Shown: positions 20,873-33,095 of the stretch, piece after piece
Numbering within the stretch: position 1 is the first letter of the stretch
Layout of the letters: every line of letters starts with the position of its first letter
NCBI GenBank assembly: GCA_964016885.1
Contig: OZ024758.1
Coordinates: 12,028,001-12,092,000 of the forward strand
Reading direction: 5' to 3'
DNA length: 64,000 nucleotides
From: Eledone cirrhosa
Taxonomy: Eukaryota
The notes under the pieces: generated by a model
Told to the model about the DNA's origin: nothing
Database searches by the model: none
The model's input: the letters and a program-made list of their open reading frames with translations, nothing else
Program-made: the position numbers and the translations under genes

Positions 20873-20979
20873 TATATATATATATATATATATATACGTT
20901 ATTCCGGGTTGAATCGGAGGTAACCACAGTAAGTAAGGTACTCATTACATAGCAGAGTATAAAAGTTTTAATATAGATG

Positions 20980-21030
20980 AGATTCGACAGGACTAGAACT
21001 GTTTCATTCTTTAGAAATCATCAGGAATCT
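20980..21030 (-). ncRNA. Type I hammerhead ribozyme (family A, GUC site)
   Basis: Minus strand: AGATTC-CTGATGA-TTTCTAAAGAAT-GAAACAG-TTCTAGTC-CTGTC-GAATCT; perfect 6-bp stem I, 4-bp stem III, canonical core. Confidence 0.85.
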
Positions 21031-22210
21031 GGGTATCAAAAAATAAATATGGTATTTATAGGCCACTTCAGGTGGTAGGAGAGGGTAGGGAGTGGGATGG
21101 GTAGAGGTCATTGGTTGATAGAAAAGGGAATTCATTAAAAGCTAATTCTTTAAAGCTATAATGTATAGCTTTAAAGAATTAGCCTTTTATCCTTACGGGG
21201 TCGATAAAATAGAGTACCAGTAATGCACTGGGGTAATTGCGGGCCTTGTGAACAAAAGTAAGAACAATTATTTTGTTTATCTAAATATGTCTCGTATTCC
21301 CTGTGGTGTAATATCTGGTTTTGGTGCCTTTATTGATTCATTTCATCTGTTAGTTTAAATTTATAAGATATTTTCTAAAGTGGTTCCAGCAGTTTTAGAA
21401 TGTAAACTTTCAACACAACTTTTATCACATTAATTCTTTATCTCTGTTCCATAATTACTTTCCTGGTTGCTGTACTATCAACATTTCGCCTTTTATTCCT
21501 CTTGTTAAGGAGGGCAATTCAATGTCTATCTTTTCTATTGATTTTTCAACTGTTCACTGTCGCTGATTTTTCTACGCAGTTCATTTCATTAAAAGTATAT
21601 CTTATGAAACTGCCTTCTTGATTCTCCTGTCAGTATAAATCTAATAATCATGAATCTACTAATTTTTCTCACTTCATCATATTCTTCCAATTACGATTAT
21701 GATGAAGATTAAATATCGAAACTATTAATATTTTATATTGTTGCTAACCACATGATGTTTGTTAATATATCAGAAACTCCCTCATATATCTAATATGTTC
21801 GTTTTCAATCAATTGACCTCGGATCTGTTCAACCTCAACCCTACTTCCACCATCACCACTCTGCGCTCTGTGGTCATTAAGAAGGAATTTGGACATATAT
21901 TTATGTATCTACCTGCCCACAGAATATGAGAACAAACATCTTTATTTTCTAAGATTAACACACCAATCGAAACCGGTAGAGTTTGACAAAATGTTAATTC
22001 ATTTAATGTAATAATTATAAAACTATTCATTCTTTCGGAATAAAAAAAAACAATCTTTAAATATACCCCTGTGCTTTTTCCCTTTTATACCTATATATAT
22101 ATATATATATATATAATATATATATATATATATATATATATATATATATATATATATATATATATATATATATATATATATATATATATATATATATATA
22201 TATATATATA

Positions 22211-22343
22211 CAGGGTGGCCCTTGACGAGTGAAAAATAATGTTCATTATGTCCTTTAAGTTGTATCAAAATTTCATATTTCAATCTGTACAATTCAGGAA
22301 GTTAATAAAAACTAAATCCCTGTGTAAATTTTGGGCCACGCTG
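22211..22343. mobile_element. Tc1/mariner-type MITE
   Basis: TIRs CAGGGTGGCCC / GGGCCACGCTG with TA on both flanks. Confidence 0.65.
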
Positions 22344-23967
22344 TATATATATGCATATTTATATATACATACATATATATGTGCTTATATATAAACTTAT
22401 GCATTTATGTATTTTTCCTTGCATATATGTAAGCTCTTCTCTTTAGATATGTAGTGGTGTCTGTGTATTTATTTAGTGATTAGTATATCAAACGATTTAC
22501 TCTCCTTATTTAGTTCAATTTAAACTCCCCCACCTCAAACACACGAGTAGCACTCCTTCCAGTTGCAAGTAAACACCGTTATTTATATCATTTTTTATTA
22601 CCATCCTTTCAAGAATTTCCTCAACGTAATTCTGTCAAAATAAATGCCAAGTTCTTTATATAATTGACTAGTTTAAGGTAAATTACAGATTTATGTGTCA
22701 TGCTAAGTAATTATACTGACAAGAAGATTCCATTGGTTTTGAATTTAATCCTATTAAAGTAAGTTTATGTAATCATATAGCAGGTAAATCTCATGAACTT
22801 ATGTTCGCTAAAACACGATTGCTGCCTATAAATGGTTTACGGTATGTATTCACTTGATATTATATTCCCAGTTCAAATATTTCCATGATCGACATTGATC
22901 GCTATCGACTGCGAACATATATCAATTAAGTTCAAGTAATTTGTGAAAGAAATTAAAATATGATGTCATATTTTGTTCGTGTTAAATATCATTATTTATT
23001 TACTTTTATTACCTATAGTATATATGAAGGATTAATTACATTATTAGCATCAAATACTCAATCATTTTAAAATCCTATATTTTTGTATAGTTTCGTAGTA
23101 ATCTGCATGTCTATCATACATGCATATTTCTTTATTACGACTCATTCGCAGTTCCATCCCAGCATTCAGTTTTCACTCATTCAAAATAATATATCTCATT
23201 TAGAAATGTTTTGTTCTTTTTCCTGATATTGTCTGCTATCCCTGGTTTTTGAATTATTTGTATATCAATATATATATATATATAACCAATACTTGTTTAA
23301 CATAATCTTCAACAATCATGTACAACATCTATGATATATTTTCAACATGTTTTGTTTTCATTTTAATGTGTTGTACTTAGTTAACTATACCTAGTTTAAA
23401 ATATACCGACAGCAGAGCCCAAGCCGTTTCGAAGGCTATTTCTGGACTCCAGAAATAGTCGTCGAAACGGCTTGAGCTCTACCGTAGGTATGTTTTTCTT
23501 CTAATTTCTCATAAACAGTGATCTTTAATTACTGCCTTGTATGAGAATTTATTTAAATTCATTGCTCTTGAAAATTATTTTCTTAGATAAAAGATGATTT
23601 TGATTTTATATATGTGAAGATGTAGATCAGATGTAGCTGCTGAATACAGGGATAATTGACAAGTTCTGAATAGTATGAATACAATTTTAATGAAAAAGCT
23701 TGCTATAATGACTAAAAAAAACAGCAAGACTTTTGATAGAACATACAATTTTAAATACCTTCCTAAAAATCATAAATAAAAGAATACTGTTATAACAGTT
23801 ATATGAAATATGTTTTATAATGAAATTGCTGAAGCATAAGTACATGTAAAGACTAAAACATATTGGAACCATGTCTTCAATCTACCAAGTACATCTTTAT
23901 ATATATATGACTTCATATGCTATTCCTAGTAGAGTATATAACTAGAATTACGAGATAACTATATCTT

Positions 23968-24079
23968 CTTCTTCTTTGCCCATTTATTCACGAGAGGGTC
24001 GTGGGAGCTGAGTCCTCATACACTCCACCCCAGGTTTGAGGACTCTGTTACCACGACCCTCTCAGGCATAAGTGGGTGA
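23968..24079. mobile_element. Two RTE 3' ends joined head-to-head within one TSD
   Basis: 15-bp direct repeat AGATAACTATATCTT at 23953-23967 and 24080-24094. Confidence 0.75.
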
Positions 24080-24322
24080 AGATAACTATATCTTGGTACA
24101 AAATTAGTTGACTACATAACTCATAATACACATTTTCTCCGAATGTTTAATCAGAATCTTTGCACAATCCCCATTTATTTCACCAGCATCATTATCTTAC
24201 TGTGAGAATAAAACAAAATATTTGAACACTAGCGAATGAATGATATAGCGTGTTGTAAATGTAAGATGTTATAGGCTAATCAAAAACAGAAACACTGTGT
24301 TCTTATCTTAGTAGTTTTAATA

Positions 24323-31610: not shown

Positions 31611-31648
31611 CCTTTTGAAAAGCAGAAGAACTGCGAAACCGGTAAAGG
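31611..31648 (+). ncRNA. Minimal type I hammerhead with U3:A8 core variant (family D)
   Basis: CCTT-TTGAAAA-GCAG-AAGAA-CTGC-GAAAC-CG-GTA-AAGG; palindromic ACCGGT stem III. Confidence 0.75.
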
Positions 31649-31863
31649 AACCAAATAAATATATATATTTTAAAAAAAAAATAAGACTTCAGTTGCATTT
31701 TCGATTTCATCTCTTTTTCTTTATACTTTCACTCGTGTAGGACACCTCGGTTATTTTTCATTTTGTAAAAAAACCCTCACTTTCTAATATATATATATAT
31801 ATATATATATATATATATATATATATATATATATATATATATATATAAGTTTTAATATAGATG

Positions 31864-31914
31864 AGATTCTACAGGACTAGAACTGTTTCATTCTTTAGAA
31901 ATCATCAGGAATCT
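31864..31914 (-). ncRNA. Type I hammerhead ribozyme (family A, GUA site)
   Basis: Same as 20980-21030 except the triplet is GTA. Confidence 0.83.
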
Positions 31915-32103
31915 GAGTATCAAAAAATAAATATGGTATTTATAGGTCTCTTCAGGTCGTAGGAGAGGGTAGGGAGTGGGATGGGTAGAGGTCATTGGTT
32001 GATAGAAAAGGGAATTCATTCATTTTAATGAATTCCCTTTTCTATCAACCAATGATCTCTACCTGAAGAGACCTATAAATACCATATTTATTTTTTGATA
32101 CCC

Positions 32104-32153
32104 AGATTCCTGATGATTTTTAAGAATGAAACAGTTCTAGTCCTGTAGAATCT
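32104..32153 (+). ncRNA. Type I hammerhead ribozyme (family A), inverted partner of 31864-31914
   Basis: AGATTC-CTGATGA-TTTTTAAGAAT-GAAACAG-TTCTAGTC-CTGTA-GAATCT. Confidence 0.8.
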
Positions 32154-33095
32154 CATCTATATTAAAACTTTTATACTCTGCAATGTATTGAGTACCTTAC
32201 TTACTGTGGTTACCTCCGATTCAACCCGGAATAACGTATATATATATATATATTTCGTTTCTGAATTTGTTTAGCAAGATACTTTATCTGAAAACGTGTG
32301 TTGAAACTGATATTGTTATACTTTGGGATGGTCATGTTGCCAATAAGAAACAATCGTCTGGCATCCATTAGATCAAGAAGCATGAAAACGCGATAGAAAA
32401 TATAGATACTTACTAAAGGAATGTTTCCAATCAGGTTTCATCATAAAATTCTATCCAAGAAATCACTTAACTTTAAGTTATATATATACATAGAACCAAA
32501 GAATATATATATATGTAAATATATATATATGTATGTATGTATATATATATATATATATATATATATATATATATATATATATATATATATATATATATAT
32601 ATATATATATATATATATATATATATGTATAAGTATTGAAGTTTCCGTTGAAAATTGAAAAACACCTGCAAGCCTGACGGTATCCAATGATGTTGACTTG
32701 TTCTTCTTTTTAGTAAATATCATCTTGGTTAAGAGAGTGGGACTGGCTTTGTGCAGTGCCTTTGCTCACTATAAAAGCTTCACGGCGCAGGCATTGCTTT
32801 ATATCTGGAGATCTCTCTGCACTTTTCGTCACATGGTACCATGGGCCCAGCACTATGTGTCAATAATTGTCACAAGTGTAGTGTTTGTACCAGAGTTGTC
32901 AAGTCGCTGGCTGGACTAAAAAGTCACACTCGTTCAGCGCATCGGTAGGAGTTCTCCTACATGAATATAAAGTAGTGGCCATACTCGAAAACGAGTTGGC
33001 AGCCACCATATATATATATATATATATATATATATATATATATATATATATATATATATATATATATATATATATATACATATATATATATATAA

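What the first reader, a model, noticed from the sequence alone, without database searches (positions are those of the whole stretch)
20896..32237. Family A: canonical hammerhead in three copies with a fixed 3' end joined to (TA)n
Seen: copies at 20980-21030 (-, GUC), 31864-31914 (-, GUA) and 32104-32153 (+, GUA) keep a perfect AGATTC/GAATCT stem I and ACAG/CTGT stem III, and the triplet varies only within NUH. The element ends ~85 nt downstream at ...CAACCCGGAATAACG followed by (TA)n. Isolated 3' ends occur at 10232, 35272 and 59500, while 5' ends are variably truncated or inverted. Inference: a constant 3' end with variable 5' truncation points to target-primed reverse transcription at TA repeats. 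This is the best candidate for an active monomeric ribozyme.
Basis: partly seen in the sequence, partly recalled or inferred. Interest (0 to 1): 0.75.

Follow-up and report, generated by a model that had tools for sequence, protein, structure and literature searches.

The report
Ribozyme at a retrotransposon's transcription start
These repeats are end pieces of a Penelope-type jumping gene with over ten thousand copies sitting in TA repeats, and the way the copies end suggests that its RNA likely starts at the first letter of a predicted self-cutting motif and is copied uncut, cap included.

Summary
The three hammerhead motifs are real. They are the terminal repeat (pLTR) of a Penelope-like retrotransposon with Hydra-clade motifs; rare copies run on into an RT + GIY-YIG ORF.

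About 16,500 exact core copies exist genome-wide. Arms have two fixed 3' ends, 21 and about 89 nt past the cleavage site, both joined to (TA)n; 22 of 22 two-armed insertions pair one of each. The scan noted Hydra elements and this two-end footprint on other DNA of this genome.

Added here: 5' ends pile up at the first base of stem I (1,906 and 2,230 junctions, against 87 at the cleavage site). That base lies 30 nt below a TATA box, and 40 of 50 non-templated junctions there carry an extra G, as expected from copying a cap. So transcription likely starts at the ribozyme, and uncut capped RNA is the template.

'Active monomeric ribozyme' is not supported: stem II has 3 bp, a competing hairpin is predicted, the GUC copy is a rare mutation, and GUG is the commonest variant. 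Cleavage and transcription were not tested.

The parts
20872..20896 (.). (TA)n tract joined to 3' end A of copy 1
20897..21166 (-). Copy 1: 5'-truncated pLTR plus 67-nt tail, ending at end A (+89; numbering from the first base after the cleavage site). A short fold-back palindrome (21134-21190) marks its 5' end
20897..20964 (-). Tail between end B (+21, 20965) and end A; it holds a small predicted hairpin (20939-20959) starting 6 nt past end B
20980..21030 (-). Hammerhead motif, copy 1 (GUC, a rare substitution). Its first base, 21030, is the inferred transcription start
21053..21060 (-). TATA box, 30 nt upstream of the first base of stem I
21108..21117 (-). CCAAT box, 84 nt upstream of the inferred start, followed by a C-rich block (motif identity recalled, not tested)
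31787..31848 (.). (TA)n tract joined to end B of the two-armed insertion
31849..32020 (-). Inverted arm of a two-armed insertion, ending at end B (+21). Hammerhead at 31864-31914 (GUA), TATA box at 31937-31944
32023..32236 (+). Forward arm, ending at end A. Hammerhead at 32104-32153 (GUA, 1-nt loss in helix II), TATA box at 32074-32081, internal deletion of the C-rich block
32237..32253 (.). (TA)n tract joined to end A
10238..10390 (.). Degenerate two-armed insertion of an older subfamily (about 81% identity); the tail abuts (GT)n
35273..35336 (-). Tail-only fragment between two TA tracts
59453..59567 (.). Short two-armed insertion: B arm 59453-59497 (-), A arm 59498-59567 (+)

Best explanation
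The repeats are hammerhead-bearing terminal pieces of a Penelope-like retrotransposon with Hydra-clade motifs that sits in (TA)n, and they were likely copied from an uncut, capped RNA that is inferred to start at the first base of the ribozyme. Shown: the unit reads ORF (RT + GIY-YIG), 3' UTR with a long microsatellite, promoter-like block, hammerhead, tail, then the next ORF; arms end at +21 or about +89; two-armed insertions pair one of each; many arms begin at -45/-44, often with an extra G. Inferred: RNA polymerase II starts at -45, using the CCAAT and TATA boxes of the upstream pLTR. The element's endonuclease nicks (TA)n, and its RT starts internally at +21 or +89. When it uses the pair of sites near the RNA's 5' end, it runs off at the cap after about 66 or 134 nt and copies the cap, leaving promoterless mini-copies and small palindromes centred on the start site. 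When it uses the pair at the 3' end of a longer-than-unit RNA, it gives long copies. The ribozyme sets neither end of the copies. Cleavage would remove the cap from the 5' copy, or the RT start sites from the 3' copy, so it likely limits or processes the RNA rather than making the template.
For: ORF link: 22 exact tail-ORF junctions; a whole element in L092; Hydra motifs; 1,298 homologs at E<=0.001. Ends: 58 A, 47 B, 3 read-through and 2 other of 110 arms; 22 of 22 pairs are A+B. This matches the two internal RT starts shown in vitro for Poseidon_Ac (PMC11167929). 5' peak: 35 of 110 arms at -43 to -46; genome-wide 1,906 junctions at -45 and 2,230 at -44, against 87, 46 and 35 at and beside the cleavage site. 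Depth in DNA run X1 falls from 1.09M to 0.23M across this point. Extra G: 40 of 50 non-templated junctions at -45, and 12 of 14 joined straight to microsatellite. Controls are 4 of 15 at -44, 1 of 10 at the cleavage site and 14% local background. Five insertions have both arms ending in that G (listing). Untemplated G is read as a cap copy for LINE-1 and SVA (PMC4859970). A TATA box lies at -29 to -33 in 117 of 125 long arms, including diverged subfamilies.
Against: Transcription start, cap and cleavage were not measured. Junctions at -44 outnumber those at -45 and lack the G excess, so the start may be spread or trimmed. The G in the 'antisense plus linker' class (27 of 32) could partly be templated by short slips. 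The 125 long arms are not independent. No TATA box at -30 was found in five other hammerhead groups met in my loci, and Drosophila Penelope has a TATA-less internal promoter (PMC2377424). None of 21 ORF-junction loci fetched has an intact ORF. The arm sample covers only the first 56 Mb of C1 and needed an intact anchor. No tree with published Hydra proteins was built.
Confidence: 0.72

Rival explanations
1. The same Hydra-type element, but the 5' peak is a structural accident: RT stalls or folds back at stem I, whose two strands are complementary, and adds G without a cap.
For: Stem I microhomology does make junctions: roughly half of the 87 at the cleavage site by eye, and 12 of 26 in the scripted subset. 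Most peak junctions are inversions.
Against: The peak also appears in arms joined directly to (TA)n, 12 of 14 with G. The G excess is specific to -45 (Fisher p 2.5e-4 and 5e-5). The TATA spacing has no role in this reading.
Confidence: 0.15
2. One reading: an active monomeric hammerhead in a short element with one fixed 3' end, where cleavage matures the RNA that is inserted.
For: The core is complete, with 6-bp stem I and 4-bp stem III closed by an 8-nt loop. Across subfamilies loop II varies while the 3-bp stem is kept, and stem I shows a compensatory change in L204 and L271. Ribozymes with a long helix III cleave as monomers (PMC4209133).
Against: Predicted share of the active monomer fold is 3e-4 to 4e-6, with a competing hairpin burying GAAA; the stem III region cofolds at -12.8 against -1.4 kcal/mol alone (such models underrate three-way junctions and I ran no active control). 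There is no peak of 5' ends at the cleavage site. The stem I change is not compensated in two L273 arms or L028.
Confidence: 0.1
3. A non-autonomous retrozyme or SINE that is copied from a circular RNA by another element's enzyme.
For: Most copies are short and non-coding. A 78-bp hammerhead satellite derived from the family exists on C28.
Against: The sequence is contiguous with its own ORF at both ends. Dispersed copies are not head-to-tail monomers, and they stop at a G-marked 5' end, which a circle would not give.
Confidence: 0.03

Closest known systems
Hydra clade of C-terminal EN+ Penelope-like elements, incl. Hydra-1_Obim (Craig et al. 2021, PMC8557442; section 11, passages and supplement parts 1, 2, 52 read)
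   Same: Single short RT + GIY-YIG ORF; DKT, CxCX5C linker, C-terminal CxxC and CxH; (TA)n insertion; hammerhead in the pLTR with the same U-flanked stem II layout, and the same ACAG/CTGT stem III as four listed families.
   Different: A different family from Hydra-1_Obim (different ribozyme and ORF start by eye). Loop III is 8 nt against 1-3 nt in the listed Hydra ribozymes; the 3' UTR holds a long microsatellite and a 194-nt duplication, making the unit about 3.6 kb; the tail is 67 nt. No promoter or start site is given for Hydra in the parts read.
Poseidon_Ac of the green anole (Frangieh et al. 2024, PMC11167929; parts 1-2 of 4 read)
   Same: Two internal RT start sites that define the tail; AT-rich targets; uncleaved RNA is the main template; the ribozyme is not needed for insertion in vitro.
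   Different: Other clade; there the ORF begins inside the ribozyme, here the ATG lies about 137 nt past the cleavage site. No cap footprint is reported in the parts read.
Penelope of Drosophila virilis (PMC2377424; passages read)
   Same: Transcription starts in the pLTR region upstream of the ORF.
   Different: TATA-less internal promoter there; here CCAAT and TATA boxes lie upstream of the inferred start, so only copies preceded by a pLTR would be transcribed.
PLE hammerheads and animal non-LTR retrozymes (PMC4209133 parts 1-2 of 4; PMC7229834 passages; bioRxiv 10.64898/2026.07.22.740005 part 1 of 5)
   Same: Type I motif in pLTRs; opposite-strand pairs 100-700 bp apart; near-palindromic helix III region suited to dimers.
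   Different: No G10.1-C11.1 pair, short stem II, long stem III; dispersed copies are not tandem monomers.
Cap-derived untemplated G of full-length LINE-1 and SVA insertions (PMC4859970; passages read)
   Same: Extra G at the 5' junction of copies that reach the transcription start.
   Different: Here it marks very short copies, because RT starts internally near the 5' end.

Membership tests
Hydra-clade PLE | Single ORF, RT then C-terminal GIY-YIG endonuclease | tested here: met
   About 715 codons with YRDD and IVY...YIG in L092, one frameshift. Homolog P0086 hits RVT_1 at E 9e-6, below Pfam's cut-off; P0001 itself has no Pfam hit.
Hydra-clade PLE | DKG changed to DKT; RWK motif | tested here: met
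   DKT present; RWR instead of RWK, as in homolog P0021.
Hydra-clade PLE | CxCX5C linker; CxxC and CxH around the conserved E and N | tested here: met
   All present in L092, L096, L099, L101, L104 and L105.
Hydra-clade PLE | CCHH motif absent from the endonuclease | tested here: inconclusive
   Two cysteines 8 residues apart lie between IVY and YIG but are absent from 11 of 11 aligned homologs; the second histidine is missing by eye.
Hydra-clade PLE | Insertion into (TA)n; hammerhead in the pLTR | tested here: met
   101 of 105 ends abut TA; motif in both pLTR positions.
Hydra-clade PLE | Elements generally under 3 kb | tested here: not met
   L092 runs about 3.6 kb because of a microsatellite-rich 3' UTR; the paper gives this as a tendency.
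Hydra-clade PLE | Phylogenetic placement with published Hydra RTs | not tested
   Published sequences were only read, not aligned.
PLEs in general | 5' truncation, inverted copy, one-sided tail | tested here: met
   the tail is 67 nt rather than 30-40.
Canonical type I hammerhead | Core CUGANGA, GAAA, NUH and three stems | tested here: met
   stem II is 3 bp.
Canonical type I hammerhead | G10.1-C11.1 closing pair and 4-bp stem II | tested here: not met
   U.U next to the core, then 3 bp; the U.U layout is usual in published Hydra ribozymes.
Canonical type I hammerhead | Self-cleavage as a monomer | not testable with these tools
   Needs an in vitro assay.
Non-LTR retrozyme | Non-coding head-to-tail repeats with a ribozyme in each unit | tested here: not met
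   Dispersed copies are pLTR pieces of a coding element; only the C28 satellite has this layout.

The most novel reading that the evidence does not exclude
The hammerhead is the first 51 nt of the capped mRNA and works as a self-decapping brake. It is held off as a monomer by a competing hairpin and switched on when two transcripts pair through the near-palindromic helix III region, so the element senses its own RNA level. The thousands of mini-palindromes are a genomic record of its start site and cap.
Probability: 0.2. Interest if true: 0.75.

Novelty: new variant of a known kind. Interest (0 to 1): 0.5.

Why it matters
What hammerheads do in Penelope-like elements is described as unclear (PMC8557442). 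If the RNA starts at the ribozyme's first base and only uncut capped RNA is copied, the ribozyme cannot be making the template, and cleavage would decap the mRNA, which is directly testable. The cap footprint also lets a transcription start be read from DNA alone. Run-off from an RT start near the 5' end would explain why such elements leave thousands of tiny hairpin-shaped copies that can be mistaken for MITEs or SINEs. The family assignment itself is ordinary.

Tried and rejected
Rfam: no hit at gathering score, and only miRNA-like noise among the rows shown. RNA evidence: no RNA holder listed, which says nothing about expression; only DNA-like contig runs X1, X4 and X5 were laid. A peak of 5' ends at the cleavage site, as a sign of cleavage in vivo, was looked for and not found. 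Selection on the core within young copies was not seen: core 1.64%, loop III 1.1%, H17 1.57% over 445 arms. The GIY-YIG ORF upstream in L007 and L072 belongs to another PLE family with its own ribozyme. The early idea of a 576-bp non-autonomous element was dropped. Pfam and PDB searches did not name the ORF. A TATA box 30 nt before stem I was not found in five other hammerhead groups. No piece of this family's ORF lies in the window. Literature searches for a cap or TATA start at a PLE hammerhead found nothing at 4 of 5 terms; most subscription papers and Repbase are not covered. A repeat annotation of Octopus vulgaris (PMC13282606, passages) does not mention Hydra or hammerheads. Supplements of PMC11167929 (genomic end profiles) were not read and may bear on the 5' peak.
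Full report
Observation. Each has a 6-bp stem I, the CUGAUGA and GAAA boxes, a 4-bp stem III with an 8-nt loop, and a 3-bp stem II flanked by U.U. They differ by one substitution and one deletion over the motif. Rfam does not score them. The host genome G000 has 3.0 Gb and is AT-rich. It looks cephalopod-like to me from recalled SINE sequences, and earlier notes call it octopus-like; I did not test this. Positions below count from the first base after the cleavage site (+1).

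A large, young family. A 240-nt query gave 1,506 candidates; of 40 scored, the best are 97-98% identical. A 26-nt core occurs exactly 16,547 times with GUA. About 2,100 of these are a plus-strand excess, probably a satellite (see below). The same core occurs 84 times with another base, which I counted by hand as 30 G, 28 T and 26 C. So the triplet does leave NUH, and the window's GUC is a rare substitution; run X1 reads GUA there almost entirely. Over 445 arms the core is no better kept than loop III, as expected for decay after insertion.

The parent element. Some ends continue with TACC instead of TA (320 matches). Following these led to an ORF, and 22 copies have the exact junction. I fetched 21 of them. 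L092 holds a whole unit: tail, an ORF of about 715 codons with one frameshift, a 3' UTR with a long TG/TA tract, a 194-nt duplication, the promoter-like block, the hammerhead, end B and (TA)n. None of the 21 has an intact ORF. The protein has YRDD, DKT, RWR, a CxCX5C linker, YIG, and C-terminal CxxC and CxH. These are the marks given for the Hydra clade (PMC8557442 section 11), whose families insert in (TA)n and carry ribozymes of the same layout (supplement). There are 1,298 homologs among 7,993 candidates scored, the listed ones at 38-52% identity. I reached this assignment before reading earlier notes, which file other families of this genome under Hydra.

3' ends. I took 86 loci from the first 100 places listed (first 56 Mb of C1; the anchor had to be intact), giving 110 distinct arms. 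Of these, 58 end at +86 to +94 (A), 47 at +19 to +28 (B), 3 run into the ORF and 2 end elsewhere. TA follows 56 of 58 and 45 of 47 ends, against 11% of window positions. All 22 two-armed insertions pair A with B, as does 31849-32236 in the window. This is the PLE tail, which in Poseidon_Ac lies between two internal RT starts (PMC11167929). Small hairpins are predicted 6 nt past B and about 10 nt past A in L091 (the two other loci in that script were mis-anchored and gave nothing). This fits earlier notes on other families; I did not test their conservation.

5' ends. Of the 110 arms, 52 begin at -36 to -46 and 35 at -43 to -46; 25 begin further up, 16 reach the microsatellite and 17 are shorter. 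Genome-wide, junctions number 1,906 at -45 and 2,230 at -44. About 7 in 100 of the -45 rows are substitutions, not junctions. At the cleavage site and its two neighbours the counts are 87, 46 and 35, against 9,271 arms with the anchor. The prefix filters differ slightly between these patterns. So nearly all arms span the scissile bond, and cut RNA is not a noticeable template.

Why -45. It is the first base of stem I. A TATA box starts 30 nt upstream and a CCAAT box 84 nt upstream; the base also fits an initiator consensus that I recall. A TATA box lies at -29 to -33 in 117 of 125 long arms (not independent), including older subfamilies with different spacers. From 88 loci I obtained 77 distinct -45 contexts. 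I set aside 5 substitutions, 20 where the inverted arm templates the last base, and 2 in AG repeats. Of the remaining 50, 40 have G where the element has C, against a 14% background; 12 of 14 joined to microsatellite have it. Controls are 4 of 15 at -44 and 1 of 10 at the cleavage site. Five insertions in the listing have both arms ending in this G, one base apart. Such a G is read as a copy of the m7G cap in LINE-1 and SVA (PMC4859970). Against: -44 junctions are more numerous and lack the excess; five other hammerhead groups in my loci show no TATA box at -30; Drosophila Penelope is TATA-less; no RNA was examined.

Mechanism. Shown: the anatomy, the ORF link, the end distributions and the G excess. 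Inferred: polymerase II starts at -45. The transcript carries the ribozyme and both RT start points near its 5' end and again at the 3' end of a longer-than-unit RNA. The endonuclease nicks (TA)n, and the two DNA ends are extended from +21 and +89. Use of the 5' pair gives run-off copies of about 66 and 134 nt, whose joining makes palindromes centred on the start site. Use of the 3' pair gives long copies such as those in the window. Short RNAs from ORF-less, promoter-bearing copies could also serve as templates; I cannot separate the two sources.

The ribozyme. Between subfamilies loop II changes freely while the 3-bp stem, the core and loop III are kept. Stem I shows a compensatory change in L204 and L271 but not in two L273 arms or L028. 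This suggests selection on the fold in active lineages. Folding predicts a competing hairpin that buries GAAA, an active-monomer share of 3e-4 or less, and a much more stable dimer of the stem III region. Such models underrate three-way junctions and I ran no active control, so this is weak evidence. PLE ribozymes tested so far are slow, dimeric or protein-assisted (PMC4209133; PMC11167929). I therefore do not support 'active monomer', and expect dimer- or protein-dependent cleavage that would decap the RNA.

Novelty. The clade, TA targeting, pLTR ribozyme, tail and inverted arms are in print, and this scan has noted them on other DNA of this genome. The start site at the ribozyme's first base, with a cap footprint, was not found in paper searches or among the notes shown; those searches are limited. 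Verdict: a new family of a known clade with a variant promoter layout, interest 0.5.

Noticed in passing
L259 (G000:C28:30625000-30634500): A 78-bp satellite of at least 122 copies at 93% match, made of this family's hammerhead from about -57 to +20. It may extend over 30.6-30.9 Mb and explain the plus-strand excess.
   Followed up: partly
window 17165-17206 (-): A hammerhead of another family with longer stems I and II; a similar sequence appears in L149.
   Followed up: no
window 21179-21272 and about 20 other places, e.g. 6442-6884, 49085-49373: An abundant SINE-like repeat of about 190 bp, directly 5' of copy 1.
   Followed up: no
L007 1-393 as oriented; L072; L048: 3' end of a different PLE family (GIY-YIG with CxxC motifs and its own hammerhead), into whose TA end this family has inserted.
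   Followed up: no
window 20700-20870, 31578-31786, 32254-32350: Ends of other TA-associated repeat families flank the copies, and the same neighbours recur in L020, L022, L011 and L024: nested insertions in shared TA tracts.
   Followed up: no
window 2884-2973, 10526-10664, 43501-43594: Long perfect or near-perfect palindromes scored as miRNA-like noise by Rfam; possibly two-armed insertions of other families.
   Followed up: no
window 20897-21030 (-): The inferred 181-nt 5' leader holds three very short upstream reading frames, two of them inside the ribozyme (read).
   Followed up: no
L082, downstream of the tail: A second, diverged Hydra-type ORF start lies about 1 kb past the tail, so other Hydra families are nearby.
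   Followed up: no
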